This document shows positions 729 through 62,798 of a DNA stretch of 64,000 nucleotides, in pieces. The position numbers and the translations under genes are program-made. Source of the stretch: a virus; the IMG/VR virus record IMGVR_UViG_3300045988_183539, one strand, 5' to 3'. Within the stretch, counting starts at the first letter, position 1, and each line of letters opens with the position of its first letter. The notes beneath the pieces are model-generated. The model did no database searches and was not told where the DNA came from. It worked only from the letters and a program-made list of their open reading frames with translations.

Positions 729-748
729 TATTACGAAAGGATATATTT

Positions 749-27526: not shown

Positions 27527-28558
27527 TTACTCTAATTCATAATTACAATCATCATTATGAGTAATATTTATATCTATAATATTGTTATTACAATTTTTTT
27601 TAGCTGTTTTTTGGTCTTGTAACAATTTTTTTGCTTTATATAAAAACGTAGGATTATTTTTAATTTGAGCTTTATTCATATTGTTAATTATATCATTAAT
27701 TTCATTCATAGATAGTATAGTAATATCATATTTTTTACTAAAGCTATTGTTAGGTATAAAATTAGGATTGTATGTATTATATTCTTGTGTTTCTAATATT
27801 TCCTGTTTCGTTTCTTTATTAAGATATTTTGATACTTCTTTTTCGTTAAGGGATTTTCCCTGATATAATGCTAATATACATATATCATACATAATAGTAG
27901 CTTCTAAGTCATTAGCTGGCTTTATATGGTCATATATATTAAGATAACAAGTATCTATTAAAGTAAATATTTCTTTGTCAGATAAGGATATATTATATAA
28001 TTCTCGAAAGTTTTGTAATTTAATTTGAACTATGTCATCATATTTTTCTGTTATTTTTAAAACATTTTCATAGGCATAGTTAAAAGCTTCACGTTCTAAT
28101 GAACATAAAACATAAAAACATAAAGCAATTTCTTTACTCTTTATATATAGATTGTTATAATCATTTATATATAAATATGCTTTTTTAGACTGTATATAAA
28201 ATACATCATTAAATTGTATTATTTTGTTAAGTTTAAAAAACGAATTAGTTTCTATTAATTTATTTTGATGACTGTGATATAATTCGTGATATAAGGTGTT
28301 ATATAATACATAACAATTGTCATCTCTATTAGATGTTAAAAGGTCTGCATTAATTTTTATAATCTTATCATCATAAGAAAAAAATCCATTTATATCTGGA
28401 GAATTAAAGTTTTTAATAATAAGTTTAGAACAGTTATTTGGAATATTTTTCTTTATTTTATCAAAAAGGGAAAAAGTTATTTTTTCTTTACGATTAATAG
28501 ATAATATTTTCCAATTTTTAGAAGTGAAATAATCTTCAAGCTTACGTTTAAAAAACAT
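27527..28558 (-). CDS. hypothetical protein with HExxH motif (possible zinc metalloprotease-like)
   Basis: 343 aa; YHELYHSHQN contains HELYH. Confidence 0.45.
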   Translation of the reverse strand: MFFKRKLEDYFTSKNWKILSINRKEKITFSLFDKIKKNIPNNCSKLIIKNFNSPDINGFFSYDDKIIKINADLLTSNRDDNCYVLYNTLYHELYHSHQNKLIETNSFFKLNKIIQFNDVFYIQSKKAYLYINDYNNLYIKSKEIALCFYVLCSLEREAFNYAYENVLKITEKYDDIVQIKLQNFRELYNISLSDKEIFTLIDTCYLNIYDHIKPANDLEATIMYDICILALYQGKSLNEKEVSKYLNKETKQEILETQEYNTYNPNFIPNNSFSKKYDITILSMNEINDIINNMNKAQIKNNPTFLYKAKKLLQDQKTAKKNCNNNIIDINITHNDDCNYELE

Positions 28559-28570
28559 AATAGTTCTCCT

Positions 28571-28912
28571 TTATACATATAAATAAAAAAACGAATGTAA
28601 ATATTTTTCTTTATCTTTGTAATTATTTTTACAATAATCATTAAAATAAGGCAAACACATTATAAAATCGTGAATTTGGTTAAAATTATAATCTGAATAC
28701 ATTATATCCCTAATAGATAATCCTTTCACCTTAATATCACTAATATTTTTATTATTTAGCCATTCATAAAAATTAGGAAGGCATTTATCTGGTATATATT
28801 CAGTTCTATTTTTTATAAGCCTTATGGCTTCATCTTCATCATAATCATATCCATCATCATAGGATTGTAATTTTAATATCATTCTTTCTTTTAAATCTTT
28901 AGGTATGGTCAT
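28571..28912 (-). CDS. hypothetical 113-aa protein
   Basis: ORF track. Confidence 0.45.
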   Translation of the reverse strand: MTIPKDLKERMILKLQSYDDGYDYDEDEAIRLIKNRTEYIPDKCLPNFYEWLNNKNISDIKVKGLSIRDIMYSDYNFNQIHDFIMCLPYFNDYCKNNYKDKEKYLHSFFYLYV

Positions 28913-29013
28913 AATTTTTATTTCTCCTTTTATTTTTTATTAAATTGTTTATATGTCTGGTATTATTTTTTCTGTATTTTGTTATCATAATATCTTGATT
29001 AAAATATAAATAA

Positions 29014-29580
29014 TTACTTATTATTGATTTCCTTTTCTTTATTAAAAAATGCTAACCCTATACAAATACTGTCAGCAATATCGTCACTAACATCTATATC
29101 GTATATTTGTTTTACTAATTCGATAGCTCTATTTTTTAATTCTTTTCTTTTTAATTTTACTTTATTTTCTGAATTAGGTATTCCTACAGCTTTTCTCCAA
29201 ACAGTAGGAGAGTAGAAATATATCAAACATCTCTTATGTTCTATTGAATAACTAAGAACTAAGCCTTGTATATGACATAACTTTTTATAAGCATATCCAT
29301 CTTTTCCCATATAAGTATCTTCAATAACTATTACTTTAGGTTTATATTTTTTTAGATAAATATTAATTCCTTTTATCATTTCAATTATTCGATAATCCAT
29401 ATTTTTCTTTTTTATTTCATTTTCCTCTTGTTTATTCATATTTTTATTTGTTTCATAAGGATTATCTGGTTTAATATAAGTGTAATCTATAAGTTCTTTT
29501 GTATTATAATCAAAAACAGCAATACCAGTATTTGTTGTACTTCCATCTATGCTGATTAAATATTGCTTTATTTTATTCAT
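29014..29580 (-). CDS. RuvC-family Holliday junction resolvase-like protein
   Basis: N-terminal ISIDGSTTNTGIAVFD (RNase H-like first Asp motif), C-terminal DIADSICIGLAF. Confidence 0.6.
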   Translation of the reverse strand: MNKIKQYLISIDGSTTNTGIAVFDYNTKELIDYTYIKPDNPYETNKNMNKQEENEIKKKNMDYRIIEMIKGINIYLKKYKPKVIVIEDTYMGKDGYAYKKLCHIQGLVLSYSIEHKRCLIYFYSPTVWRKAVGIPNSENKVKLKRKELKNRAIELVKQIYDIDVSDDIADSICIGLAFFNKEKEINNK

Positions 29581-29660
29581 TTGTTTTTATTCCTTTTTTA
29601 ATAATATATATTATCTTTTTTATTTTTAATTTAATGAAAATCAAAAGTAATTTTATATAA

Positions 29661-29725
29661 ATCGAACGGTTGTTCCGGTGCCGAAAATGACTAAACTAGA
29701 TAAAAAGTTTTTAGGGTTTATTTAG
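29661..29725 (+). repeat. copy B of the conserved ~55-nt element
   Basis: ATCGAACggttgttccGGTGCCGAAAaTGACTAAACTAGaTAAAAAGTTTTTAGGG; overlaps the stop of the - strand gene 29711-30001. Confidence 0.7.
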
Positions 29726-30001
29726 AAATAATTCTATAGTATTAATAGCACTACCATTTATAGATATAATTTCTAATTCTTCTAATTCTTTTTTTATATC
29801 AGTAGACATTCTTTTACTAAAAAAATCTTTTGTTCTAAAATCAATAGGATTGTTTAAATATTGCTCTATTTCAATAATACCTAACCTTTTATTGGTTTCT
29901 ATTTCATATAAAACAATATGTGTTGGAGCTATTCTTGAATATGATGAACCATATTTTATTATTAAATTTTCTAAAAATACTATATAATCTTTTAATTTCA
30001 T
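29711..30001 (-). CDS. hypothetical 96-aa protein
   Basis: ORF track. Confidence 0.45.
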   Translation of the reverse strand: MKLKDYIVFLENLIIKYGSSYSRIAPTHIVLYEIETNKRLGIIEIEQYLNNPIDFRTKDFFSKRMSTDIKKELEELEIISINGSAINTIELFLNKP

Positions 30002-30303
30002 ATTAATAAAATACCTTTCTTTGTGTAATAAATATATGTATATGTATGTTTTATATATTTTAAATTATAATAATAATGTCTTTTATTTTATAAATTGTTT
30101 AAATTTTGATGTATATTTTTTGACATTTTTACATTATTATTAAAAACAAAAAATATGATATAAAATATTATTATTTAATTAAGAAAGAAAAATATTATAA
30201 TTATATTTGACAGTAGTAAAATACAGATTTATAAATATAATTAAAGATATTTAATATAAAAATATCCCAAACTATTAATTATATAAAAAGAAAGGAAAAT
30301 ATT

Positions 30304-31219: not shown

Positions 31220-32788
31220 ATGAGTATTGGAATATTTATAGCTGTAGTAGTTGTAGCTTTATTATTAATGAGTTATATAAAAGCACCAACAGATAAGGCT
31301 TTTATTGTATCAGGCTTAAGGAAGAAGCCTAAGTATGTAATAGGAAGGTCAGCACTTCGTATTCCATTTTTACAGAGAGTAGATAAGCTTGATTTAAAAA
31401 TGATTAGTGTTGATGTAAAAACTAAAGAGTCAGTTCCTACAAATGAATATATTAATGTAAATATTGATTCAGCAGTTAAAATTAAGGTTGGTTTATCACC
31501 AGATATGTTAGAAAAGGCAGCTAATAACTTCTTAAATAAAAATGATTTATATATTAGAGACCAGGTTGTTGATGTACTTGAAGGTAATGTTCGTGAAATT
31601 ATTGGGCAGATGAAGCTTGAAGAAATTGTTCAGGATAGAAAGTTATTTGCTGAAAAGGTACAGGAAAACGCTGCTCCAGATATGGAAAAGATGGGTCTTG
31701 AAATAGTAAGTTTTAATGTACAGAATGTTACTGATGAAGGCAATGTTATTGAAAACTTAGGTATTGATAGAGTAGTAAGTATTTCTAAGTCAGCACAGAT
31801 TTCAAGAGCAGAAAGTGAAAGAGATATTGCTGTTGCTAAAGCTAATGCTGAAAAACAGGCTAATGATGCAAGAATTGAAGCAGAAACAGCTATTGCAGAA
31901 AGAAATAACGAACTTGAAATTAAAAAGCAGGAGTTAAAGAAGGCTGCTGATATTAGAAAAGCTGAAGCAGATGCCGCTTATGAAATTCAGGAACAGGAAC
32001 AACGAAAGACTATTGAAATCACAACTGCAAATGCTAATATAGCAAAGCAGGAAAAGGAGATTGAACTTAGAGAAAAGGAAATTGCTGTTAAGGAAAAGAC
32101 ACTTGATGCTGAAATCCGTAAACAGGCAGAAGCAGAAAAGTATGCCGCACAGCAGAAGGCAGATGCAGACCTTTATTTAAGACAGAAGGAAGCAGAAGCA
32201 AAGCAGTTTGAAATTGTTAAACAAGCTGAGGCTAAGAAATCACAGGCAGAAGCAGATAGATTTGCTAAGGAACAGGAAGCAGAAGCTATTAAGGCACAGG
32301 GATTAGCAGAAGCAGAGAGCATTAAGGCTAAAGGTGTTGCTGATGCTGAAAGTATTAAGGCAAAGGGTATGGCAGAAGCAGAAGCTATGGAAAAGAAGGC
32401 AACTGCCTATGAGAAGTATGGTAAGGCTGCTATGACTGATATGATTATTAAGATACTTCCAGAAATGGCAGGACAGATTGCTAAACCTCTTGAAGCCATT
32501 GATAAGGTTACTATTATTGATGGTGGTAATGGTGAAACAGGGGTAGGTTCATTTAGTGGTAATGTTCCTTCAGTACTTGCAAAGACTATTGAATCTGTTA
32601 AGGAAACAACAGGATTTGACCTTACAGAGGTTATGAAAGCTAATACATATGATGCTAAAACAACTAAGAATGTTAATTTTACAGGACTTCCTAATGAAGT
32701 TAATGTAGATGCTTCTAATGTTTCTGATATAGAAGATGTGTTTGAAAATACTGATTTTGATAAGGCTATGAAAAAGCTTTCTGATTAA
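31220..32788 (+). CDS. flotillin-like SPFH/band-7 protein
   Basis: N-terminal TM helix, SPFH-like region, long Ala/Glu/Lys coiled-coil with EA repeats typical of FloT/YqiK. Confidence 0.7.
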   Translation: MSIGIFIAVVVVALLLMSYIKAPTDKAFIVSGLRKKPKYVIGRSALRIPFLQRVDKLDLKMISVDVKTKESVPTNEYINVNIDSAVKIKVGLSPDMLEKAANNFLNKNDLYIRDQVVDVLEGNVREIIGQMKLEEIVQDRKLFAEKVQENAAPDMEKMGLEIVSFNVQNVTDEGNVIENLGIDRVVSISKSAQISRAESERDIAVAKANAEKQANDARIEAETAIAERNNELEIKKQELKKAADIRKAEADAAYEIQEQEQRKTIEITTANANIAKQEKEIELREKEIAVKEKTLDAEIRKQAEAEKYAAQQKADADLYLRQKEAEAKQFEIVKQAEAKKSQAEADRFAKEQEAEAIKAQGLAEAESIKAKGVADAESIKAKGMAEAEAMEKKATAYEKYGKAAMTDMIIKILPEMAGQIAKPLEAIDKVTIIDGGNGETGVGSFSGNVPSVLAKTIESVKETTGFDLTEVMKANTYDAKTTKNVNFTGLPNEVNVDASNVSDIEDVFENTDFDKAMKKLSD

Positions 32789-32940: not shown

Positions 32941-32959
32941 AAAATTGAGGATTTATATT

Positions 32960-33847
32960 ATGAAAGATTGGATAAAAAATATTCATACCATTGATAAGAC
33001 TTGTGTAAATTCTGAAGGGGAATATTATAAATATACAGAATTTAACAGAAAGCCAATATCTTTATATATCGTTGTAACAAGAGATTGTAATGCCAGATGT
33101 CCTTTTTGTGAATATAGAGGAAAACTAAAAAAAATCAATATCAATAAATTTGAAGAAATTTTTATTGAGTTAAGTAAATATTATGATATTACAACAGTTC
33201 ATTTTACAGGTGGAGAACCTACCTTAGAATTAGATACAATTAATGTATTAAGCAAAGTCATAAAAGAAATTTCTCCTTTAACTAAAACAAGCGTTAACAC
33301 CAATGGAATATTCTTAAATGAATTGTCTAATATAGATACAATAGATAATATTGCTTTAAGCAGACACACTATTATAGATAAAGATAATTTTAATATTTTT
33401 AGAACCAATAATATCGCTACATATGAAAATATTTATAATAATAATTATAAGGAAAAAATTCATTTAAGCTGTAATCTTATAAAAGGATATATAGATAGTA
33501 GTGATAAAATATTAGAATATCTTGAAATGGCATCTAAATTAGATATTAATGATGTAGGTTTTGTTAGTCTTATGCATATAAATAATTATTGTGAAGAAAA
33601 TTTTGTAGAATTTAGTAATATAATTCCAAAGGAAAAGGATTTTTTTAATAAAACAAGAGATTATAAATGTATTAATAATAAAAATATAATTACTTGCAAG
33701 TGTGAAAATTATCTTTATAGAGCTAAAAATATGAATTTTATATCAATGTATCATAGATATGCTATTAAGAATAATGAAAAAGCAGATTTTCTTGTTTATG
33801 AAAACAATCATTTAAAACAAGGCTTTAATGGAAATATATTAATATAA
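32960..33847 (+). CDS. radical SAM enzyme
   Basis: CNARCPFCEY (CxxxCxxC) near the N-terminus and a GGEP motif (HFTGGEPTL). GAGGA RBS before ATG 32960 (track start 32945). Confidence 0.6.
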   Translation: MKDWIKNIHTIDKTCVNSEGEYYKYTEFNRKPISLYIVVTRDCNARCPFCEYRGKLKKININKFEEIFIELSKYYDITTVHFTGGEPTLELDTINVLSKVIKEISPLTKTSVNTNGIFLNELSNIDTIDNIALSRHTIIDKDNFNIFRTNNIATYENIYNNNYKEKIHLSCNLIKGYIDSSDKILEYLEMASKLDINDVGFVSLMHINNYCEENFVEFSNIIPKEKDFFNKTRDYKCINNKNIITCKCENYLYRAKNMNFISMYHRYAIKNNEKADFLVYENNHLKQGFNGNILI

Positions 33848-35360: not shown

Positions 35361-35801
35361 ATGAAACATAATATAAAGCAAATATCTTTTATGATAGCGT
35401 CTTTTAAAGATATTACTGATTCTTTTGGAGAAAATAAGAAATCTATAGAATTTTTTAAAAGGCAGGTTGAAGGTCTTGTTAATATAGGTCAGTTAAATTA
35501 TTTAGATGTTATTTTATTCTATAATATATTAGATATATATAATACTAATTTAGAAGAAATAGACTGGATTAAATTAAATAAGAATTTAAACGAATACATA
35601 GAAACTATGAGTAAGGTTGTAAATATAAAAAATAAAGATAGCGTGTATTATTTATTAACAGATAATAATAATATATCTAAGCAGACTAAAAAAGTTATAT
35701 TTAGGACATTAGATATAAAAGATGAAGATTATAAAATAAGTTCAAAGGATAATGATATATCTTTTGGTAGTTATGAAAAGAATAATTCATTTTTATATTA
35801 G
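35361..35801 (+). CDS. hypothetical protein, paralog of 34618-35319
   Basis: See above; GGAG RBS. Confidence 0.5.
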   Translation: MKHNIKQISFMIASFKDITDSFGENKKSIEFFKRQVEGLVNIGQLNYLDVILFYNILDIYNTNLEEIDWIKLNKNLNEYIETMSKVVNIKNKDSVYYLLTDNNNISKQTKKVIFRTLDIKDEDYKISSKDNDISFGSYEKNNSFLY

Positions 35802-36489
35802 AGATTGTATTAATGAACATACTAATGAATTAAGAGAAGATATTTTAGGTTCAAGAAAAGAAAGATGGATGATTGGTGTTAGTTGTATGAGTGGTTGTCC
35901 TGTAAGATGCCAGTTTTGTAATACTGGAAAATTAAAAAGGTATAGAAATCTATCTGCAAAAGAGATATATGAACAGGTTGTTTTTATATTAGACAAGCAT
36001 CCAGAGATAAAAGAGATTGATAGTAAGGAATTTAAGATTAATTATACAAGAATGGGAGAACCTTTTCTTAATATTGAAGCTGTAAAAGAAGCTATCACTC
36101 TTATAGACAATGAGCCAAGATTAAAGAATGTCAAGATACATCATTATATAAGCACAATAGGACTTAAAGGTAGTGATTTTAGTTTTGTAAAGGATAATAT
36201 TACTTTACAAATTAGCTTACATAGTCTTAATGAAGATAGAAGACACAATCTTATTCCTATAGATGGACTTATGAGTATAAAAGAACTTGGCGAAATAAGA
36301 ACAGAAAGTAATCTTAAGACAACTGTTAATATGACGCTTGTAGACACAAAAGACTTTGATATTGATATTATGAAAAAGTATTTTGACCCTAAGTATTTTT
36401 TTATTAAGCTTAGTCCTATTAATGAGAATGAGGTTAGTAAGGAACATAATATGGGTAAAGGTATTATTCATAGAGAAAATTTAATATAA
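35773..36489 (+). CDS. RlmN/Cfr-family radical SAM protein, trimmed form lacking the N-terminal domain and the C-terminal Cys-bearing tail
   Basis: GVSCMSGCPVRCQFCNTG...RNLSAKEIYEQV, TRMGEPFLN, ISTIGL and LQISLHSLNEDRRHNLIPI align with the RlmN core. No Cys after the cluster. Start uncertain (35752, 35773 or 35866). Confidence 0.6.
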   Translation: MKRIIHFYIRDCINEHTNELREDILGSRKERWMIGVSCMSGCPVRCQFCNTGKLKRYRNLSAKEIYEQVVFILDKHPEIKEIDSKEFKINYTRMGEPFLNIEAVKEAITLIDNEPRLKNVKIHHYISTIGLKGSDFSFVKDNITLQISLHSLNEDRRHNLIPIDGLMSIKELGEIRTESNLKTTVNMTLVDTKDFDIDIMKKYFDPKYFFIKLSPINENEVSKEHNMGKGIIHRENLI

Positions 36490-44545: not shown

Positions 44546-45136
44546 ATGAATATCGAATATAATATTACTCTAAAATACACAAAAAACAATATTATAGATT
44601 TTTTGTGTAGAGAGGATGATAAAAAATGGTTTTTACATAAGAATGATTTAAAAAATTATATAGAAAAATATATTTCAAAAATTCCTGAACCAATATTAAA
44701 AGCTTTTGATAAAGAAGGATGGAAAATAATTTTAACAAATGAAAACTTAGAAGATAAGTTTGGTTATGATTTTGAAATATATGGAGTTACAGATAAAAAT
44801 TACAAAACAATATATACTTATGCATATCCTGTAGCAATAACTTACGGTTTGGGTCACGAAATAGGCCATTTTGTTGATATATTTTTAGGAAATATTTCAA
44901 GAACTAACCAATGGAAGAATATATGTAAACAACATAAAGAATTATCAGATATGCCAATATATTATTTTACATTAAATAAATGCGAATTTTATGATGAAGA
45001 ATATTTTGCAGATAGCTTTTTATTATTTCTTAATGACAAGACATTGCTTAAAAGATGTAATGAAAGTGCATATAATTTATTTGATAGGTTATTTAATAAT
45101 ATAGATATAATTATAGATATAATATCAAAAGGTTAA
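44546..45136 (+). CDS. HExxH zinc-metalloprotease-like protein
   Basis: GLGHEIGHFVD contains HEIGH; 196 aa. Confidence 0.5.
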   Translation: MNIEYNITLKYTKNNIIDFLCREDDKKWFLHKNDLKNYIEKYISKIPEPILKAFDKEGWKIILTNENLEDKFGYDFEIYGVTDKNYKTIYTYAYPVAITYGLGHEIGHFVDIFLGNISRTNQWKNICKQHKELSDMPIYYFTLNKCEFYDEEYFADSFLLFLNDKTLLKRCNESAYNLFDRLFNNIDIIIDIISKG

Positions 45137-47882: not shown

Positions 47883-48362
47883 ATGAAAACTAAGAAAACA
47901 CTAAAATTAGAACAAGATATATATAATGCTACAAAGAAAGTGGGAGTCTTTGGATGTTTTGAAGTGACAATAGGTTTCTTTGGTAAAGAAAGAGTAGATT
48001 ATATGACATATGATACAAAAGGTATTTTTAGATGTTATGAAATAAAAGTAAGTAAGTCTGATTTTCATAGCAATGCTAAATTAAGTTTTGTAGGTCATTA
48101 TAATTATTATGTCCTTACAAGAAAATTATACGAAGAGGTTAAAGATGAAATACCTGATTGGGTTGGTGTTTATGTAGGAGAGAACCTTGTAAAATCACCT
48201 AAAAAGCAAGATATAGACGAAAAGGTATATAAATATAGAAGAACAATAAATGGTCGCTCTAGTGAGCTTACAATACCTTATAAAGAGATGTTAAAAGAAA
48301 GTATTATTAGGTCTCTATACAGAGATGCAAATAAATGGTATATTTATAATTATCAATTATAA
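47883..48362 (+). CDS. PD-(D/E)xK nuclease-fold protein (VRR-NUC/Hjc-like)
   Basis: GVFGCFEVTIGFFGKERVDYMTYD...FRCYEIKVSKSDF has the core beta-strand order with D...E-x-K. Confidence 0.45.
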   Translation: MKTKKTLKLEQDIYNATKKVGVFGCFEVTIGFFGKERVDYMTYDTKGIFRCYEIKVSKSDFHSNAKLSFVGHYNYYVLTRKLYEEVKDEIPDWVGVYVGENLVKSPKKQDIDEKVYKYRRTINGRSSELTIPYKEMLKESIIRSLYRDANKWYIYNYQL

Positions 48363-48378
48363 AGGTGGTATATATACT

Positions 48379-49176
48379 ATGATGATAGCTTTAACATATA
48401 GATGTAATATGGGATGCACTCATTGTATTTCAGATTGCAAACCAGATGGAATAGATATGAGTAAAGACACTCTTATTGATAGTCTTGATTTTATAAATAA
48501 ACATAAAATAAAAGCAATATTGTTTTCTGGCGGTGAACCATTTGAGCATCCAGATATTATATCTTTACTTGATGTTATAGAAGAAAAATTAGATAAGAAT
48601 ACCCCTATTACCTTTGCTACAAATGGAAGAGTTTTAGCAGATAATATTGAAATTTATGAAAAAGTATCTGAATTAGTTAAGAAGAATAAGAAAAGAATAA
48701 TCATACAGGTAACAGATGATGATAGATTTTACCCTACTAAACTTAATGAAAAGCAAAGATATAGACTAGAAAAGATAGGTGCTGTTATAGAAGGTGTTCC
48801 TAGCTATGTTTCTGATAGAAATAAATGTTTATATCCACAAGGTAGAGCTTTAGATAATTTTGATGAATCTTTTTATTATACTATTGCACCTAAATGCGTT
48901 AATATACGATTATTAGTAAGACAGAATATAAATAAAATATCTAATATATGTGATACATTGCTTATGAGAGGAAAGATGTGTACTCCAGTAATTGCTCCTA
49001 ATGGTATGCTAAAAATAGGAGAGTCAGCCTTGTGTCCTGAAGTAGCTTCAATTTATGATAATGAAAAAGATATTATAAATAAAATATCTCATTTTAATTG
49101 TAATAAATGTACATATGCACTTGAACAATTAAAGAAAAATAATCTACCTGCTTATAATCTATTAATAAAGGAGTAA
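48379..49176 (+). CDS. radical SAM enzyme with Cys-rich SPASM/twitch-like C-terminal domain
   Basis: CNMGCTHC (CxxxCxxC), FSGGEPFEHPD, C-terminal CVNIRLL...CDTLLMRGKMCTPV...ALCPEV...NCNKCTYA. AAAGGTGG RBS before ATG 48379. Confidence 0.6.
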   Translation: MMIALTYRCNMGCTHCISDCKPDGIDMSKDTLIDSLDFINKHKIKAILFSGGEPFEHPDIISLLDVIEEKLDKNTPITFATNGRVLADNIEIYEKVSELVKKNKKRIIIQVTDDDRFYPTKLNEKQRYRLEKIGAVIEGVPSYVSDRNKCLYPQGRALDNFDESFYYTIAPKCVNIRLLVRQNINKISNICDTLLMRGKMCTPVIAPNGMLKIGESALCPEVASIYDNEKDIINKISHFNCNKCTYALEQLKKNNLPAYNLLIKE

Positions 49177-55130: not shown

Positions 55131-55610
55131 ATGAATACGAAAACATTAAAGAAAGAAATATTAAAATTTATCATAAAAGATGGATTATATATAATAATAG
55201 GGTTTATGATTATAGCTATATTTACTTATTTTGTAGTGAAAGATATATTCTCACCAACAATGATAATTCTTAGTATAGTAGGTTTTTTTGTAATATTTGT
55301 AATACTTCAATCATTTTTGTTATATAATGATGAGATAGATGAAATAGATGAAATAGATACAAGGCTTTATATTAAAGAGTTAATAGATAAGGATATACCT
55401 TTAGATATACAATTATGTCCAGATAATTTTAATCAATGTATTGAAATTAAACATTTTGCTATTGACTATTATGGTGAATTAAAGTTAAGAATAGATACTT
55501 TATATGATTATGGTACTGAGTTATCAATTATAATGAAACCTATTGATAAAGATAATAAGAAAATAGAAATAGATAATGAATTAAATGTTTATGTTTATTT
55601 AAAAATATGA
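55131..55610 (+). CDS. membrane protein (two TM helices) with EIDEIDEID repeat
   Basis: ORF track; AAAGGAAAAATAAATATG RBS. Confidence 0.45.
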   Translation: MNTKTLKKEILKFIIKDGLYIIIGFMIIAIFTYFVVKDIFSPTMIILSIVGFFVIFVILQSFLLYNDEIDEIDEIDTRLYIKELIDKDIPLDIQLCPDNFNQCIEIKHFAIDYYGELKLRIDTLYDYGTELSIIMKPIDKDNKKIEIDNELNVYVYLKI

Positions 55611-55814
55611 TAGGATTAAGATAATATGAATATAAAAGTGAGGAAGAAGACATATGACAGATATATTAAAATTAAGATGTTATATGGATGAAACATCTAC
55701 TCCTTATAATGAAAATGAAATTCAAACATTAAATATTAAAGAAGATGATTAATTTAAAAATTTTATCAATATAATTTTAAAGCTGGTGTAAAAGATATAT
55801 ACATCAGCTTTTAT

Positions 55815-55850
55815 TTTATTTTTATACACTATTATTATAAAGATATAAAT
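55815..55850 (+). promoter_or_regulatory. promoter cassette family member
   Basis: TTTTATTTTATTTTTATACACTATTATTATAAAGATAT after the agctggtg...catcagct hairpin. Confidence 0.4.
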
Positions 55851-55872
55851 TTGAAAAATGAAAGGAAAAATA

Positions 55873-56019
55873 ATGTTTGGTAATATTTTATATGTTCTAT
55901 TAATATTATCTTTGATATCTTTTGTTATAAAAGGTATTAGAGATAAAGATATTATTATTTGTTTGTTTAATGTGATGGTCGCTTTTATGATAAGCGTTAT
56001 ATACTTTTGTATATTTTAA
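55873..56019 (+). CDS. 48-aa highly hydrophobic peptide (small membrane protein; type I toxin-like)
   Basis: AAAGGAAAAATAATG RBS; MFGNILYVLLILSLISFVIKGIRDKDIIICLFNVMVAFMISVIYFCIF. Confidence 0.4.
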   Translation: MFGNILYVLLILSLISFVIKGIRDKDIIICLFNVMVAFMISVIYFCIF

Positions 56020-56039
56020 TAATAGGGGTAAGAATAATA

Positions 56040-56328
56040 AATGCAAAAATTTGTAAAAATTAATAACGAAGTGGACACGCCTGTAAGAATAAGGATTGCC
56101 TGAGTTGCCAGGTGGAAACTTAAATATCAAACTTCTTAAATAGGGGCACAGCCCCTTAGAAGCCCATTACCTTTAGGTGATGGGGAGTTCACATGTAATC
56201 TATTTTGTTGCAGAAGACTGTTTAAGCCAGAAAACTTTTGTAAAAAATATGGCTGGAATAAAACTTGTAGAACTTGCCAGCAAAAAGGAAGTTATAAATT
56301 ATTTGAATAATAGTATGAATGATAAAAG
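56040..56328 (+). ncRNA. candidate structured RNA / long structured 3' region ending at a terminator
   Basis: Locally GC-enriched with GGGGCACAGCCCC and CCCAT...ATGGG hairpins and a repeated TTGCCAG. No convincing + strand ORF. Ends at the intrinsic terminator 56329-56358. Confidence 0.3.
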
Positions 56329-56358
56329 ATGTTCTTAAGAATAAGGACATCTTTTTTT
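56329..56358 (+). terminator. rho-independent terminator
   Basis: gatgttctta-agaa-taaggacatc + T7. Confidence 0.55.
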
Positions 56359-56685
56359 ATGACCTTATTTTTATAAAGTACTTTATAAGAAATTATTCAT
56401 TAAAATATAAAAAATTATAGCATAAAGATACTAACTTTTTGTTATTAGGATAAAAAATAATATATATTTTTTGTAAAAATCTATATGTAAATTTAAAATT
56501 TATTACACAAAAGGTTATTTTTAATATAATCACAAAAATTATTAAACACGCTAAATAAAACATAAGGGATTTTATAAATAGACATACTTTAAAATCTATT
56601 ATATTAAACATTTAAGGCTACTAAAATTTCAACAATATAATATCTATTTGTGTAATAAATTAATAATATATACTCTTTATTTTTA

Positions 56686-56745
56686 TTTCTAAAAAAATTT
56701 CTAAAATTCTAAAAAAGTCTAATAAATACTCTAAAAAGATTTCAC
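56686..56745. repeat. iteron-like direct repeats (TCTAAAA(A) x4) upstream of the primase-helicase gene; candidate replication origin
   Basis: TTTCTAAAAAAATTTCTAAAATTCTAAAAAAGTCTAATAAATACTCTAAAAAG. Confidence 0.4.
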
Positions 56746-56812
56746 TTTATAACATTATTTTTATAAAAGAAAAAATAACAGAAGTAAAAAAATAAGAAAG
56801 GAAAGATTTATT

Positions 56813-56956
56813 ATGATTGATTTAAATAATATGCCAATAGATGAACTTAAAAAATATTTATCAGAAAATAATTTATCTATCGTATGTGAAGATGGAAAGA
56901 TTGTTTCTACTGTTTTAGAAAAAGAAGCTGATTTTGAAGACGAAAAAGAAATTTAA
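56813..56956 (+). CDS. hypothetical 47-aa acidic protein
   Basis: AAGAAAGGAAAG RBS; absent from the track because of size. Confidence 0.3.
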   Translation: MIDLNNMPIDELKKYLSENNLSIVCEDGKIVSTVLEKEADFEDEKEI

Positions 56957-57001
56957 CAACATTATTATTAAAAAAAATACAAATGAGAGGAGTATCTGCT
57001 A

Positions 57002-59674
57002 ATGAATAGTAATAATATTGTTGAATGTATGTTTTTTGGTCAGAGATTTAATGAAAAGCCTTCTAAAATGGAAACAGGATATATACAGAAGAATATAACG
57101 ATTGCAAACATAACAATAGAAAATTTAGCAGAAGCTCTTGTTAATGGTGCTTCTTTTAGACCAAGCATATTAATAGGGGGACGTACAAAAGATGATTGGA
57201 AAAGACAACAGCTTTTTGGTTTAGATTTTGATAGTGGTGTTTCTATTGATGCATCATACAATAAAGCTATATCATTAGGTCTTATTCCTGTATTTATGTA
57301 TACTACATTTAGTCATACTCCAGAACATCACAAATATAGAATGATTTTTTGTACAGATAAAGTCATTACAGATATGGCTTTAAGAGACAAATTCCAAGCT
57401 ACTCTTATGGGTTTAATGGGAGATATAGATAAAGTATGTTTTAACAGAGATAGATTATTTTTTGGAGGAAAAGGTAAAGAAATACTTTTTCCTAATTTCA
57501 ATGCAAAACTTAATGCAGAAGAAATTATAGATAAGTATTGGAAAGATGATTTTGAAGTATATATAAAAGGACAAACTAAGTCAAAAAAAAGAAAATTAAA
57601 GAAAACAACAGAACCTAAGCAAAATAATTCATTTACTGTTATAAATTATGAACCAGATATTGATGAAATACCTTATGCAAGTTATCCAGTAAGATGTGTT
57701 ACCTTAGGTAATTTACGTTGTCTAAAAAAATATTATGATAGTATTATTTGGGCAGAAGGAATGCACAGAGAAAGATTTATTTTTATTTACTACAATTGTG
57801 TTAAATTACTTTATGGTTCAGATAGAGCTTATAAAGAATGTATAGAATTAAATAATAGTATGGAAGAACCATTAACAACATATGAATTAAAATCTGCAAT
57901 AATACATACAGATGAACATATGGAAAATAAAGATTGGTATAGAAAAGCATTACACGGAGATGGATGTTTTATTTTTAGACCTGAAACAATTATTTCAGAT
58001 AAATGGTTAAATATAGATGAAGAAACAGCTATAAAATGTGGATTTTTTGATAATAAAATAAGAAAAGAAAAAATAGAAGAAAATAAAAAGTTAGATACTC
58101 TTAGAGATAAAGAAGTAGCTAGATTATATTTATCTGGATTAGGTTATAAAAAAATAGTTAATAACCTTTCTAAGGAATATAAATGTAGTGCATCTACAGT
58201 TAAAAGAACTATAGAGAGATTAGGAATAAAAGAAAGAAATATTTCTTTAGAAGATATAGAGTTTAATGAAAATAAGAAGTATGCCAAACATTCGTTTGGG
58301 GTGCCGAAAGTGACTAAACTAGAAAAAGAAGTTTTTAAGGTAAAGTCTAAAAAAGAAATATCAGATAATAAAGAAGATAATATAGTATTTTTAAATGAAG
58401 ACTGTAAGAGATTATATGAAACGTCTAAAAATGCAGGGTCAGAAAGTAATATTAATGAACAGGAGATAGCTATTGAAACAATATTAAATAATCCTACAGT
58501 TAATTACTGTTTAAAAGGTAAAGCTGGTACAGGTAAAAGTTATTGTATTAATAGTTTATTACAGAGATTAACAGAAGAAGAAAGAAAAAAGACATTAGTA
58601 GTAGCTCCAACAGGAGTAGCTGCTTCTAATATTACATATACAACAGCTCATACAATACATTCAATATTTGAGTTATATACATTCGTACAAAGACAAGATG
58701 AACATATTAGGATACCTAAGATTTTATTAAATGTAGATAGAATTATCATTGATGAAATAGGTATGGTAAGAAAAGATGTATTTAATCAGTTAGTACGAAT
58801 TATTAATAATGCTCAAAAATTAACAGGTAATAAAATACAGTTAATATTAGCAGGAGATTTTGGACAGATTTCCCCTGTTGTTACAAAAGAAGATAAAACT
58901 GTAATGGATATTTATTACAAGGGAAGTGAAGATAAATATTTCTGTTTTGATAGTCCTTTATGGGATAGTTTAGATATTCATACAATAGTATTAAGAAATA
59001 ATCATAGACATAATAATGATGATTGCGATGAATTACAGAAAGAATTTATTAATATATGTGATGAGATTAAATTTGGAGCTATATCAGGATTAAAATGGTT
59101 AAATAATAACTTAAAACATACTGCTATAGAAGATGGAATATATCTTTGTGCTAATAATAAACAGGTTGATGTTTATAATAAAATGTATACAGATAAATTC
59201 ACAGATAAAAAGACATATAATGCTGTATGTTTTGGAATTACATCTGAAAGAAAATTACCTGTAAAGCTTAGTTTAGAATTAGCAGTAGGTATGAAAATAA
59301 TGACTCTTGTTAATACAAAGAAATACAAGAATGGTAGTTTAGGAGTAATAACAAAGCTTTATAAGGATAAGATTAAAGTAAAGTTAGATAATACAGGAAA
59401 AGAGATTACTGTAAAATATACTGAATTTAAGATAAATGAAGAAACTGATGAAGTATTATATCAGTTACCAATAGCTATAGCATATGCTATTACTGTAAAT
59501 AAAGCACAAGGATTAACATTAGAGAAAGTAAATATTGTTCCTGGCTTTTTTGCGGCAGGACAATTATATACAGCTATAACAAGAATAAAGAATGTACATA
59601 ATATTAGTATTATTGGTGAATTAAAAGAAACTGATTTAGTTGTAGATACAAGAGCATTAAGTTTTATTGCTTAA
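57002..59674 (+). CDS. replication protein: N-terminal AEP-type Prim-Pol + PriCT-like region + HTH, fused to a C-terminal Pif1/RecD-like helicase
   Basis: N-terminal LFGLDFDSG (DxD) and TTFSHTPEHHKY (SxH) primase-polymerase motifs; HTH ASTVKRTIERLG. Helicase motifs LKGKAGTGKSY, VVAPTGVAASNI, IIDEIGMV, ITVNKAQGLT, AAGQLYTAITRIKN. GAGAGGAG RBS. Confidence 0.7.
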   Translation: MNSNNIVECMFFGQRFNEKPSKMETGYIQKNITIANITIENLAEALVNGASFRPSILIGGRTKDDWKRQQLFGLDFDSGVSIDASYNKAISLGLIPVFMYTTFSHTPEHHKYRMIFCTDKVITDMALRDKFQATLMGLMGDIDKVCFNRDRLFFGGKGKEILFPNFNAKLNAEEIIDKYWKDDFEVYIKGQTKSKKRKLKKTTEPKQNNSFTVINYEPDIDEIPYASYPVRCVTLGNLRCLKKYYDSIIWAEGMHRERFIFIYYNCVKLLYGSDRAYKECIELNNSMEEPLTTYELKSAIIHTDEHMENKDWYRKALHGDGCFIFRPETIISDKWLNIDEETAIKCGFFDNKIRKEKIEENKKLDTLRDKEVARLYLSGLGYKKIVNNLSKEYKCSASTVKRTIERLGIKERNISLEDIEFNENKKYAKHSFGVPKVTKLEKEVFKVKSKKEISDNKEDNIVFLNEDCKRLYETSKNAGSESNINEQEIAIETILNNPTVNYCLKGKAGTGKSYCINSLLQRLTEEERKKTLVVAPTGVAASNITYTTAHTIHSIFELYTFVQRQDEHIRIPKILLNVDRIIIDEIGMVRKDVFNQLVRIINNAQKLTGNKIQLILAGDFGQISPVVTKEDKTVMDIYYKGSEDKYFCFDSPLWDSLDIHTIVLRNNHRHNNDDCDELQKEFINICDEIKFGAISGLKWLNNNLKHTAIEDGIYLCANNKQVDVYNKMYTDKFTDKKTYNAVCFGITSERKLPVKLSLELAVGMKIMTLVNTKKYKNGSLGVITKLYKDKIKVKLDNTGKEITVKYTEFKINEETDEVLYQLPIAIAYAITVNKAQGLTLEKVNIVPGFFAAGQLYTAITRIKNVHNISIIGELKETDLVVDTRALSFIA
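58285..58341 (+). repeat. copy C of the conserved ~55-nt element, embedded in the primase-helicase CDS at the linker between HTH and helicase domains
   Basis: AAACATTCGTTTGGGGTGCCGAAAGTGACTAAACTAGAAAAAGAAGTTTTTAAGG; encodes ...KHSFGVPKVTKLEKEVFKV... Confidence 0.7.
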
Positions 59675-59735
59675 ATAAAAAGCAGTTAAAAAATACAATA
59701 CATAAATTAAGATTATATGAAAGGAAATTAAAATT

Positions 59736-61907: not shown

Positions 61908-62798
61908 ATGGATAATACAGCTTTAGCAAAGAGAATGAAAAAATATTATGAAGAAGTACCTAAAACAAGATTAATAAGAAGAATGCCAGTATGTATAAGA
62001 TTAGATGGAAAAGCATTTCATACGTTTTTAAAGGGATTTAAAAAGCCATTTGATGATATATTTATAAAAACAATGCAGGATACTATGAGATACTTATGTC
62101 AGAATATACAGGGATGTGTATTAGGTTATTCACAATCAGATGAAATCAGTTTAATACTTATAGATTATCAAAAACTCACAACAAGTGCCTGGTTTGATTA
62201 TAATGTTCAAAAGATATGTAGTGTGTCATCAAGTATGGCTACATTAACCTTTAATAAGCTATTAAAAAACAATGTTGATAAATATAAGGTTGAAAAATGG
62301 GATGGAGTTTCAAAGTATAAAAATGGAGAAGATGAATATATTGAGACATTATTAAGAGCAGTTGATAAAGGTGCAATGTTTGATAGTAGATGTTTTAATA
62401 TACCAAAGGAAGAGGTTGCTAATTTAATATTCTGGAGACAATTTGATGCAAGCAATAATTCAGTACAAATGGTAGGACAGGCTTATTTTACGCAAGAAGA
62501 ACTTAATAACAAGAATACTAATCAGATACAGGATATGTTAATGACACAGAAAGGCATTAACTGGAATGATTATCCTATTTATCAGAAGAGAGGAAGTTGC
62601 TGTATTAAACGAAAATTCTGGATTGATAAAAATGATGGGTGTGAATTTAGTGAAGAATATTCTTGTGAATTAGAAAAAGCAGGCGTTAATAGTGATAATG
62701 CTATTAAAAAAACAGAATGGATTATAGATAAAAACATTCCTATATTCAAAGGAGAAAACAGAAAATATATAAATGAATTAATACTTTTTAAGGAGTAA
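61908..62798 (+). CDS. Thg1-like protein (TLP): tRNA-His guanylyltransferase-family 3'-5' nucleotidyltransferase
   Basis: PVCIRLDGKAFHTFLKGFKKPFD and VLGYSQSDEISLIL match the Thg1 RLDG-x-FH-x-F and GQSDEYSF catalytic motifs; C-terminal ANLIFWRQFDASNN matches the Thg1 WRQ region; 296 aa. Confidence 0.65.
   Translation: MDNTALAKRMKKYYEEVPKTRLIRRMPVCIRLDGKAFHTFLKGFKKPFDDIFIKTMQDTMRYLCQNIQGCVLGYSQSDEISLILIDYQKLTTSAWFDYNVQKICSVSSSMATLTFNKLLKNNVDKYKVEKWDGVSKYKNGEDEYIETLLRAVDKGAMFDSRCFNIPKEEVANLIFWRQFDASNNSVQMVGQAYFTQEELNNKNTNQIQDMLMTQKGINWNDYPIYQKRGSCCIKRKFWIDKNDGCEFSEEYSCELEKAGVNSDNAIKKTEWIIDKNIPIFKGENRKYINELILFKE

What the first reader, a model, noticed from the sequence alone, without database searches (positions are those of the whole stretch)
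56686..59674. Candidate replication origin (iterons) plus Prim-Pol-helicase fusion Rep protein
Four closely spaced TCTAAAA(A) direct repeats in an AT-rich gap sit 250 bp upstream of a gene fusing an AEP primase-polymerase (DxD, SxH motifs), a PriCT-like region, an HTH and a Pif1-like helicase. This fits an iteron-type oriV with a self-priming replicative helicase, and it identifies the element as an autonomous replicon (plasmid or phage-plasmid) rather than only an ICE.
Basis: partly seen in the sequence, partly recalled or inferred. Interest (0 to 1): 0.55.

Follow-up and report, generated by a model that had tools for sequence, protein, structure and literature searches.

The report
Primase-helicase replication gene with upstream repeats
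The gene really is a four-part DNA primase, origin-binder and helicase fusion that most likely copies a very large plasmid-like element of an uncultured gut Clostridiaceae, but the short repeats upstream are not classical iterons and the origin itself remains unproven.

Summary
Observation confirmed. Four exact TCTAAAA copies, plus one degenerate copy, lie at 56688-56736. That clustering never arose in simulations.
- a divergent PriCT-1 bundle, supported only through homologs that pass Pfam's threshold;
- an HTH;
- a Pif1/RecD2/Dda-like SF1B helicase (Pfam 87 bits).

Interpretation partly supported. A replicase role is likely. The first three domains match the ColE2 Rep and RepE/RepS initiator primases. 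A 37%-identical homolog is the only recognisable replication gene on a circular 14.5-kb plasmid contig.

The TCTAAAA units are not iterons. They are 7 bp long and 8-12 bp apart, about one helical turn (phased A-tracts). Their number falls 4, 2, 1, 0 across relatives. More distant homologs have no iterons.

The better conserved cis-feature is a perfect 15-bp inverted repeat (56497-56511 / 56647-56661). It flanks 135 bp of 18% GC and is kept in four lineages.

Homologs also occur beside integrases, so the gene does not rule out an ICE. GC skew shows no switch here. Verdict: a new variant of a known kind.

The parts
56497..56511 (+). Left arm of a perfect 15-bp inverted repeat, AATTTATTACACAAA. 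It is a candidate protein-binding site, for Rep or a regulator.
   Evidence: Perfect inverted repeat found. The core ATTTATTACACAA has only 3 exact copies in 64 kb. An inverted pair sits in the same intergenic region of L001, L002 and L005 and nowhere else in those loci.
56512..56646 (.). 135-bp spacer between the inverted-repeat arms, 17.8% GC. It is a candidate DNA-unwinding region. Its length varies between lineages and its sequence is poorly conserved.
   Evidence: GC content. The gap between arms is 135, 227 and 212 bp in the window, L001 and L005; the L002 arms start 169 bp apart. The three-way alignment of this region is poor.
56647..56661 (-). Right arm of the inverted repeat; reads TTTGTGTAATAAATT on the + strand.
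56688..56736 (+). The mean spacing is 10.5 bp, so these are helically phased A-tracts, not classical iterons.
   Evidence: Positions. Clustering is beyond chance. Copy number is 4/2/1/0 in the window, L001, L005 and L002. L001 and L005 keep A-tracts 10-14 bp apart at the same place.
56813..56956 (+). Conserved 47-aa ORF with a ribosome-binding site, immediately upstream of rep. It is a probable accessory or regulatory protein of the rep operon.
   Evidence: It was called as a gene at the same position in every close locus. The protein alignment has the invariant pattern LN..P..EL...L...EDGKI..V. The only Pfam hint is weak: SAP, E 0.007, below threshold.
57002..57571 (+). rep, aa 1-190: AEP primase-polymerase domain, with D75-F-D77, S104-H105 and N148-R-D150-R.
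57683..57919 (+). rep, aa ~228-306: four-helix bundle with the invariant motif W250..EG.HRERFIFIYYN265. It is a divergent PriCT-1-like domain.
58064..58237 (+). rep, aa ~355-412: helix-turn-helix DNA-binding domain (RD..IA.LYLSGLGY...CS..TVKRTIERLGI). It is the presumed origin or operator reader.
58454..59665 (+). rep, aa 485-888: SF1B helicase of the Pif1/RecD2/Dda type. Walker A is GKAGTGKS (506-513) and Walker B is DEIG (584-587).
   Evidence: Pfam PIF1 1.5e-24, 87.3 bits. phrog_325 Dda-like helicase 4e-59. NCBIfam RecD2 1.3e-25 and TraA_Ti helicase part 1.5e-16. Invariant motif residues.
30021..30033 (-). Third exact copy of ATTTATTACACAA. It lies just upstream of the ribosome-binding site of the minus-strand gene 29711-30001, at the edge of the most AT-rich stretch of the window (8-11% GC).
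   Evidence: My own composition-based estimate is about 0.04 exact copies per window by chance. Its link to the rep locus is inferred, not shown.

Best explanation
ORF 57002-59674 encodes a single-chain initiator, primase and helicase. It is most likely the replicase of a large, low-GC element that carries Gram-positive type IV secretion genes, in an uncultured Clostridiaceae host. The same protein occurs on contigs up to 243 kb.

Proposed mechanism (inferred):
1. The HTH and the PriCT-1-like bundle recognise and open a specific site, as in ColE2 Rep.
2. The C-terminal Pif1/RecD2-like SF1B helicase unwinds 5'-3' from that opening.
3. The N-terminal AEP domain makes the primer.
4. Host polymerases then take over.

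The gene forms a probable operon with a conserved 47-aa protein. The cis-acting site is probably in the 474-bp leader (15% GC) upstream. The conserved elements there are a perfect 15-bp inverted repeat flanking 135 bp of 18% GC, followed by helically phased A-tract repeats. Those A-tract repeats are the TCTAAAA units. They are more likely a bent or UP-like promoter-origin element than Rep-binding iterons.

Shown: the domain identities, the conservation of the inverted repeat and the small ORF, and the statistical reality of the repeat cluster. Inferred: the replication role, the origin location, and which protein binds the inverted repeat.
For: Domain evidence:
- AEP fold with intact catalytic residues.
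- PriCT-1 and HTH supported through homologs.
- PIF1 helicase above Pfam threshold with all motifs.
- AEP-PriCT-1-HTH is the architecture of the ColE2 Rep, RepE/RepS and PrimHYQ initiator primases (PMC5862659).

Relatives on replicons:
- Homolog P0010 lies on a 14,587-bp contig with a 55-bp terminal overlap, so the contig is circular.
- Its other identified genes are a methyltransferase plus IceA-like pair, ParA, a SymE-like gene, DUF1643, a resolvase, a coupling protein, a Mob_Pre relaxase and DUF5688. No other Rep was recognised; its small ORFs without Pfam hits were not examined further.
- The AEP domain has sequence relatives in B. licheniformis plasmid pTAB7B (next to ParA), in phage Deep-Purple, in Paenibacillus phage VirE primase-helicases, and in cyanobacterial plasmid proteins annotated PriCT-2 or CyRepA1.
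- No other Rep family was found among about 45 of the larger window ORFs scanned against Pfam.

Cis-elements:
- The inverted repeat is conserved in four lineages while the DNA around it diverges.
- The HTH recognition helix, TV(K/R)RT(I/V)ERLGI, is shared by exactly those four lineages and differs in the others.
- The leader is the second most AT-rich region of the window.
- The 690 bp upstream of rep are identical in the six loci that encode the identical Rep, whereas sequence further upstream differs between them.
Against: - There is no experimental link between this family and replication.
- GC skew and gene orientation do not switch at 56.7 kb. A bidirectional origin here is therefore unlikely; only a unidirectional mode would fit.
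- In the characterised ColE2 and pAMbeta1 systems the origin lies downstream of rep (my own knowledge). Here the downstream gap is 28-61 bp and not conserved.
- Only 64 kb of an element of at least 243 kb was seen, so another replicon may exist elsewhere.
- In C. difficile pJMR5-4, an AEP ORF with a repeat-dense region failed to support replication (bioRxiv 10.1101/2022.07.10.499461).
- Homolog P0009 has N at both motif I aspartates, so priming is dispensable in at least one member.
- Two homologs sit next to a relaxase and coupling protein, which also fits a conjugation role.
- The inverted repeat could be an operator rather than an origin.
Confidence: 0.6

Rival explanations
1. The protein is the replicase, but the upstream leader is only the promoter and operator of the small-ORF and rep operon. 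The phased A-tracts act as a bent, UP-like element. The 15-bp inverted repeat is an autoregulatory or repressor operator. The origin lies elsewhere: inside rep, in the 30.0-30.3 kb AT-rich divergent region, or outside the window.
For: - The repeats end 77 bp before the small ORF's ATG, which is a typical promoter-proximal position.
- A-tract spacing averages one helical turn.
- A third copy of the 13-mer lies in the 5' leader of an unrelated minus-strand gene, as expected for a shared operator.
- The left arm overlaps a promoter-like site, ATTACA-17-TATAAT, scoring 10 of 12.
- There is no skew switch at this locus.
- The lowest GC in the window is at 30.0-30.3 kb.
Against: - Promoter-like hits are no more frequent than in shuffled sequence: 9 against 8.4 expected.
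- An operator pair 135-227 bp apart that flanks a spacer of variable length is unusual for simple repression.
- Promoter and origin functions often overlap in plasmid rep leaders, so this rival is not exclusive of the best explanation.
Confidence: 0.35
2. The protein serves conjugation rather than vegetative replication. It would act as a relaxosome-associated or transferred primase-helicase that unwinds the transferred strand and primes complementary-strand synthesis in the recipient. Known examples of that kind of role are RP4 TraC, ColIb Sog, the MobA-RepB' fusion and the helicase half of TraA/TraI relaxases.
For: - In L006 the homolog lies between a NikA/MobC plus relaxase pair and the coupling protein.
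- In L008 it lies about 1.4 kb from a coupling protein and Mob_Pre relaxase.
- In L007 a Mob_Pre relaxase is nearby.
- The helicase part matches the helicase region of Ti-type TraA relaxases at 1.5e-16.
- The window carries type IV secretion genes: PrgI, a VirB4-like ATPase and a VirB11-like ATPase.
- RepB'-family primases are sometimes fused to relaxases (PMC5862659).
Against: - In the window the gene is more than 30 kb from the secretion genes and no relaxase was recognised.
- The sequence-specific HTH plus PriCT-1 module is the hallmark of origin-specific initiator primases.
- L008 would be left without any recognisable Rep.
- pTAB7B, which carries a related AEP protein, is typed non-mobilizable.
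Confidence: 0.2
3. One reading: the four TCTAAAA repeats are iterons bound by Rep, and they form a classical iteron-type oriV.
For: - The clustered same-strand repeats are beyond chance.
- They lie in an AT-rich gap upstream of a rep-like gene.
- L001 keeps two copies at the same relative place.
Against: - The units are 7 bp long and 8-12 bp apart, not 17-22 bp at a regular spacing.
- Copy number is 4, 2, 1 and 0 in lineages that share the same HTH recognition helix.
- More distant homolog loci have no iteron arrays.
- There are no DnaA boxes.
- The repeats are mostly A-tracts, which fits a structural rather than sequence-specific role.
Confidence: 0.1
4. The protein is a repair or defence enzyme (a PrimPol-helicase for damage tolerance, or an anti-phage system) and not a replicase.
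For: - In L007 the homolog follows UmuC-like Y-family polymerase genes, and that homolog has lost the motif I aspartates.
Against: - The best structural matches are replicative enzymes (S-2L PrimPol, RepB').
- The protein carries an origin-binder-type PriCT-1 plus HTH module.
- Its genomic contexts are plasmid or ICE backbones with ParA and mobilisation genes.
Confidence: 0.05

Closest known systems
ColE2-P9 Rep, and the related RepE/RepS (pAMbeta1, pSM19035) and PrimHYQ initiator primases
   Same: The domain order is the same: AEP primase, then PriCT-1, then HTH (PMC5862659). In these proteins the PriCT-1 and HTH part binds and opens a specific origin, and the AEP domain makes the primer.
   Different: The protein here adds a C-terminal SF1B helicase that those proteins lack. 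It has no direct Pfam match to the Replicase or PriCT_1 models. No conserved site was found downstream of rep, which is where those systems keep their origin (my own knowledge).
RSF1010 RepB' primase, working with RepA helicase and RepC iteron-binding protein
   Different: RSF1010 splits the three functions over three proteins and uses true iterons. Its helicase is a hexameric RepA-type enzyme, not SF1B. RepB' has Gln in motif II, whereas this protein has His (PMC5862659).
pRN1 ORF904, phage NrS-1 and cyanophage S-2L primase-polymerases
   Different: From my own knowledge, the helicase partners in those proteins are SF3, D5 or VirE-type ATPases. The published survey of AEP fusions lists RepA, DnaB, MCM, VirE, DUF927, DUF3987 and SF2, but no SF1B or Pif1 fusion.
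Herpesvirus helicase-primase (UL5 SF1B helicase, UL52 AEP primase, UL8)
   Same: It pairs the same two enzyme classes: an AEP primase with a Pif1-like SF1B helicase. The Pfam Herpes_Helicase model hits this protein at 7.7e-08. Literature listed.
   Different: The herpesvirus enzyme is a three-subunit complex that needs a separate origin-binding protein (my own knowledge). Here all parts, including an HTH, sit in one chain of a bacterial element. A direct evolutionary link was not tested.
The ~610-645-aa family of Firmicutes mobile elements with an AEP domain and a CHC2 zinc ribbon (Lachnospiraceae MAG proteins, pTAB7B WP_119954044, phage Deep-Purple gp002)
   Same: The N-terminal AEP domain is 54-62% identical over about 190-235 aa to the Lachnospiraceae members. 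It is about 31% identical to the pTAB7B and Deep-Purple proteins.
   Different: After the AEP domain those proteins carry a DnaG-type zinc ribbon and an unrelated C-terminal region, instead of PriCT-1, HTH and helicase. They are uncharacterised.

Membership tests
AEP (archaeo-eukaryotic primase) superfamily, Prim-Pol-like | AEP catalytic fold | tested here: met
AEP (archaeo-eukaryotic primase) superfamily, Prim-Pol-like | Motif I (hhhDhD), motif II (sxH) and motif III (hD) | tested here: met
   LFGLD75FD77 is nearly invariant. S104-H105 is invariant. N148-R-D150-R is invariant across 98 sequences. The motif II context is FSH rather than strict SxH. P0009 has N at both motif I positions.
AEP (archaeo-eukaryotic primase) superfamily, Prim-Pol-like | Match to a curated sequence model (Pfam Prim-Pol, Replicase and similar; NCBIfam) | tested here: not met
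   No Pfam, NCBIfam or PDB sequence hit for aa 1-210. PHROGs gave only families of unknown function or a generic 'DNA helicase' family.
PriCT-1 domain (PF08708) | Match to the Pfam model | tested here: inconclusive
   The query itself has no hit at E <= 0.1. Homolog P0151 (E 1.7e-13 to our aa 221-428) scores 25.2 bits, above the 21.1-bit cut-off, at residues aligned to our aa 256-306. P0172 scores 28.7 bits directly before the part that aligns to our HTH. Only 2 of 58 relatives hit the model.
PriCT-1 domain (PF08708) | Helical bundle immediately after an AEP domain | tested here: met
Pif1/RecD2/Dda-like SF1B helicases | Pfam PIF1 model above the gathering score, with Walker A, Walker B and the later helicase motifs | tested here: met
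   87.3 bits against 25.9. phrog_325 at 4e-59. GKAGTGKS, DEIG, GDFGQ, TVNKAQG and YTAITR are conserved. The 5'-3' polarity is inferred from the family, not tested.
Iteron-type plasmid origin (oriV) | Three or more direct repeats of about 17-22 bp at regular spacing | tested here: not met
   The units are 7 bp long with spacings of 12, 8, 10 and 12 bp. No longer multi-copy family was found in 56300-57010.
Iteron-type plasmid origin (oriV) | Repeats conserved in number and position next to homologous rep genes | tested here: not met
   4/2/1/0 copies in the window, L001, L005 and L002. No arrays in L004, L006, L007 or L008.
Iteron-type plasmid origin (oriV) | Adjacent AT-rich unwinding region | tested here: met
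   The leader is 15.2% GC and the spacer between the inverted-repeat arms is 17.8% GC.
Iteron-type plasmid origin (oriV) | DnaA boxes | tested here: not met
   No TTATCCACA with up to 1 mismatch between 56339 and 56812.
Iteron-type plasmid origin (oriV) | Rep binds the repeats, and the fragment replicates autonomously | not testable with these tools
   This needs gel-shift or footprinting assays and a replication assay.
ColE2 Rep / RepE-RepS type initiator primases | AEP, PriCT-1 and HTH in one chain | tested here: met
   The architecture is described in PMC5862659.
ColE2 Rep / RepE-RepS type initiator primases | Sequence membership (Pfam Replicase PF03090 or the RepE/RepS cluster) | tested here: not met
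   No such Pfam hit. The tblastn search of plasmids finds other AEP lineages: pTAB7B-like, and cyanobacterial PriCT-2 or CyRepA1 proteins.
Autonomous plasmid, as opposed to an ICE | Circular extrachromosomal contig with no integrase | tested here: inconclusive
   The window has no terminal overlap. No integrase was found among the ORFs scanned. Only 64 kb of an element of at least 243 kb was seen. Homologs occur both on a circular plasmid contig (L008) and beside recombinases (L006, L013).

The most novel reading that the evidence does not exclude
A single polypeptide that combines an AEP primase, a PriCT-1 plus HTH origin reader and a Pif1-like SF1B helicase is the sole, self-sufficient initiator of a megaplasmid-like conjugative element of at least 243 kb. 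It would start replication unidirectionally at a two-part origin made of two inverted 15-bp Rep sites flanking an unwinding region. That would make it a bacterial, one-chain counterpart of the herpesvirus UL5/UL52 helicase-primase with built-in origin recognition. This fusion type is absent from the published survey of AEP fusions that I read.
Probability: 0.3. Interest if true: 0.6.

Novelty: new variant of a known kind. Interest (0 to 1): 0.45.

Why it matters
Primase-helicase fusion replicases of mobile elements are a known kind. This one joins the origin-specific AEP-PriCT-1-HTH module to an SF1B Pif1-like helicase. The published AEP survey I read does not list that combination.

The family is rare: 67 representatives among 1.84 billion protein clusters. 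No curated sequence model recognises its first 470 residues.

If it is the replicase, it gives a compact candidate replicon (leader, 47-aa ORF and rep, about 3.4 kb) for a very large, almost entirely unannotated element that recurs in metagenome assemblies from many samples. It could also serve as a vector backbone for low-GC Clostridia.

It also gives a simple bacterial model for how an AEP primase and an SF1B helicase cooperate, which is otherwise studied in the herpesvirus helicase-primase.

The practical lesson for annotation is that the conserved inverted 15-mer, not the eye-catching A-tract repeats, is the feature to test first.

Tried and rejected
- DNA searches (blastn) of 56300-59700 against the plasmid and phage collections found nothing.
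- Full-length tblastn found only helicase-half matches.
- Rfam found nothing, at gathering threshold over the window or at E <= 1 over 55600-57050. No tRNAs were found.
- Direct Pfam, NCBIfam and PDB sequence searches of aa 1-470 gave nothing usable.
- CodY-box idea for the TCTAAAA block: no match in the block, and window-wide counts equal chance. Rejected.
- DnaA boxes: none in the leader.
- A shared k-mer motif upstream or downstream of all nine distinct homolog loci: none found.
- GC skew as an origin locator: no switch at 56.7 kb. In the circular plasmid L008 the skew simply follows gene orientation. Uninformative, except that it argues against a bidirectional origin here.
- Folding the inverted-repeat region as single-stranded DNA only recovers the arm pairing: z -2.7 in the window and -0.9 in L001. 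There is no evidence for a conserved internal hairpin.
- The minus-strand ORF 56393-56611 (72 aa) inside the leader has no Pfam hit and a poor ribosome-binding site. I treated it as spurious.
- The MAFFT alignment of the leaders was unreliable in AT-rich DNA, so I used anchored motif positions instead.


Full report
**1. What is in the sequence**

The window is about 25% GC. Almost all genes are on the + strand, and GC skew is positive throughout except in a small minus-strand block at 27.5-30.0 kb. The finding lies in a 474-bp gap (56339-56812, 15.2% GC), followed by a 47-aa ORF (56813-56956) and an 890-aa ORF (57002-59674).

Exact TCTAAAA copies start at 56688, 56700, 56708 and 56730, all on the + strand. 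A degenerate TCTAATA starts at 56718. The heptamer is not enriched across the window (51 found, 47 expected). A cluster of four within 50 bp never appeared in 300 Markov simulations of the whole window, nor in 10,000 simulations trained on the local AT-rich sequence.

**2. The protein**

- *Helicase.* The C-terminal half (aa 485-888) is a Pif1/RecD2/Dda-like SF1B helicase: Pfam PIF1 at 87.3 bits against a 25.9-bit cut-off, and phrog_325 at 4e-59. All helicase motifs are invariant across homologs.
- *Assigning the middle region.* An exhaustive phmmer search of 1.84 billion representative proteins found only 67 relatives of this region. Of 58 relatives scanned, 41 carry a PIF1 helicase.
  - Relative P0151 passes Pfam's PriCT_1 threshold at the residues aligned to our aa 256-306.
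  - Relative P0172 has PriCT_1 directly before the part that aligns to our HTH.
  - Relatives P0183 and P0179 hit HTH_23, GerE and Sigma70_r4 at the position of our aa ~360-410.

The PriCT-1 call is transitive rather than direct.

**3. Relatives and their contexts**

About ten full-length homolog clusters were found in the 90%-identity cluster database, at 37-99% identity. The AEP domain alone is 54-62% identical to a very large family of ~610-645-aa proteins that carry a DnaG-type zinc ribbon instead of the middle and helicase parts. That family is mostly in Lachnospiraceae MAGs. More distant members (about 31% identity) occur in B. licheniformis plasmid pTAB7B, next to ParA, and in phage Deep-Purple.

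Contexts of the full-length homologs:

| Locus | Homolog | Context |
|---|---|---|
| L008 | P0010 | 14,587-bp contig with a 55-bp terminal overlap, so circular. Carries a restriction-modification pair, ParA, resolvase, coupling protein and Mob_Pre relaxase. No other recognisable Rep. |
| L006 | P0008 | Between a relaxase and a coupling protein, on a contig that also has a tyrosine integrase |
| L004 | P0005 | Follows ParA, ParB and DUF6017 |
| L007 | P0009 | Follows UmuC-like genes; this homolog has lost both motif I aspartates |
| L013 | remnant | Broken copy beside a large serine recombinase in a 522-kb chromosomal contig |

The exact window protein occurs on 13 contigs, the longest 242,898 bp. 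A 98%-identical fragment lies in an uncultured Clostridiaceae MAG. No relative was found among 2.9 million IMG/VR viral contigs. The large window proteins gave no hits to phage structural families.

The window carries Gram-positive type IV secretion genes: PrgI, a VirB4-like ATPase and a VirB11-like ATPase. Among the ORFs scanned I found no integrase, no relaxase and no other Rep family.

**4. The non-coding leader**

I compared the window with three lineages whose Rep is 56-62% identical (L001, L005, L002). TCTAAAA is present 4, 2, 1 and 0 times.

What is conserved at that place is a run of A-tracts about one helical turn apart. The spacings are 12, 8, 10 and 12 bp in the window and 10-14 bp in L001 and L005. 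More distant homolog loci show no iteron arrays, and no DnaA box lies in the leader. These are not classical iterons.

The strongly conserved element is a perfect inverted repeat.
- In the window, AATTTATTACACAAA lies at 56497-56511 and its complement at 56647-56661, 135 bp apart.
- L001 has 17-bp arms 227 bp apart, and L005 has 15-bp arms 212 bp apart.
- L002 has a 13-bp pair whose arms start 169 bp apart.
- In each of those three loci the 11-mer core occurs exactly twice, only there, and always as an inverted pair.
- The spacer is 16-22% GC and its length and sequence are not conserved.

The four lineages that share the repeat also share the HTH recognition helix TV(K/R)RT(I/V)ERLGI, which differs in the other homologs. 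This fits Rep binding the arms, but it may only reflect their closer relatedness.

A third exact copy of the 13-mer lies at 30021-30033, in the leader of a minus-strand gene. It sits at the edge of the most AT-rich stretch of the window, 8-11% GC. The 47-aa ORF is conserved as a protein.

**5. Interpretation**

AEP-PriCT-1-HTH is the architecture of the ColE2 Rep, RepE/RepS and PrimHYQ initiator primases. In ColE2 Rep the PriCT-1 and HTH part unwinds the origin duplex (PMC5862659). The protein here adds an SF1B helicase. The most economical reading is a self-contained initiator, primase and helicase, supported by the L008 plasmid and by the plasmid and phage relatives of the AEP domain.

The origin is probably in the upstream leader, with the inverted 15-mers as recognition sites around an unwinding region and the phased A-tracts as a bent element. 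This is inferred. The same features fit a promoter and operator.

Neither GC skew nor gene orientation switches at this position. That argues against a bidirectional origin here and leaves only a unidirectional mode.

A conjugation-linked role remains possible, given the relaxase and coupling-protein neighbours in L006 and L008 and the similarity of the helicase to that of TraA relaxases.

The C. difficile pJMR5-4 result is a direct caution. There, an AEP ORF with a repeat-dense region did not support replication (bioRxiv 10.1101/2022.07.10.499461).

**6. Comparison with known systems, and novelty**

- Closest in function and architecture: ColE2 Rep and RepE/RepS, which lack the helicase.
- Closest in structure: the S-2L PrimPol and RepB'.
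- Closest in enzyme pairing: the herpesvirus UL5 (SF1B) and UL52 (AEP) helicase-primase. The Pfam Herpes_Helicase model hits this protein at 7.7e-08 (literature).

The published survey of AEP fusions lists RepA, DnaB, MCM, VirE, DUF927, DUF3987 and SF2 partners, but no SF1B partner. I rate this as a new variant of a known kind.

**7. Verdict**

The domain architecture is confirmed. The replicase role is likely (about 0.6-0.7). An origin in the leader is possible (about 0.35-0.4). TCTAAAA as iterons is unlikely (about 0.1). The claim that the gene proves an autonomous plasmid rather than an ICE is not supported. Interest is 0.45.

Noticed in passing
whole window; L020-L025: The element is very large. 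The identical Rep lies on contigs up to 242,898 bp (ERZ28617915 scaffold_15), with two contigs in the 0.2-1 Mb class. Almost all genes are co-oriented and most have no Pfam or PHROG hit, including proteins of 1481, 714, 615, 509 and 499 aa. It looks like an uncharacterised megaplasmid-like element of an uncultured Clostridiaceae.
   Followed up: partly
window 339-3217 and 21990-23105: Gram-positive type IV secretion genes: a PrgI-family protein (339-728), a VirB4/TraG-like ATPase (749-3217) and a VirB11/T2SSE-like ATPase (21990-23105). An Amidase_3 cell-wall hydrolase lies at 10577-11443. No relaxase or coupling protein was recognised.
   Followed up: partly
window 26018-27286: A second, stand-alone PIF1/Dda-like helicase of 422 aa (phrog_325 at 9e-66). 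It is 32% identical to the helicase half of Rep.
   Followed up: partly
window 27527-30303: The only minus-strand block in the window has four genes, one of them RuvC-like (29014-29580). It ends at a 302-bp divergent gap of 8-11% GC, the most AT-rich DNA in the window. That gap holds the third exact copy of the Rep-leader 13-mer (30021-30033) and a good TTGACA-17-TATAAA promoter-like site facing right (about 30208).
   Followed up: partly
window 56071-56193: A GC-richer island that folds into a compact multi-branched RNA structure: -45.6 kcal/mol, z -3.8, reached by 1 of 200 shuffles. It has no Rfam match. It is present only in the window, L020, L022 and L023 variant. In L021, L024 and L025 the sequence more than about 690 bp upstream of rep differs, and genes of about 193-195 aa and 79 aa lie there instead. 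It may be an uncharacterised small RNA or a scar of a mobile insertion.
   Followed up: partly
window 32945-33847, 35752-36489, 48325-49176, 61908-62798; L001, L005, L020: There are three radical-SAM proteins and a Thg1-like tRNA-His guanylyltransferase. In the extended loci there are also weak (faint) Pfam hits to RNA 2'-phosphotransferase (PTS_2-RNA) and RLIG1, an RtcB-family hit on a 143-aa product (L002), an ADP-ribosyl glycohydrolase and a TnpB. RNA-repair and modification genes are unusually frequent for a plasmid-like element.
   Followed up: no
window 31220-32788 and 44546-45136: A flotillin / SPFH (Band_7) protein of 522 aa, and a small protein with an anthrax lethal-factor-like (ATLF) metalloprotease domain.
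   Followed up: no
L008 6374-6420: On the circular 14.5-kb plasmid contig, a 14-bp direct repeat TGTACCAAATTTAA occurs twice, 30 bp apart, immediately after the rep stop codon. This is where ColE2 and pAMbeta1-type origins would be expected.
   Followed up: no
window 56356-56377 and 56746-56767: A 22-nt direct repeat, TTTATGACCTTATTTTTATAAA and TTTATAACATTATTTTTATAAA, with 20 of 22 positions identical. It brackets almost the whole leader, 390 bp apart. I did not test whether this is beyond chance in such AT-rich DNA.
   Followed up: no
P0009 (L007 10001-12574): This full-length homolog has Asn in place of both motif I aspartates (LNFND) but keeps the helicase motifs. It follows UmuC-like Y-family polymerase genes. 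It may be a primase-dead member with a different role.
   Followed up: no
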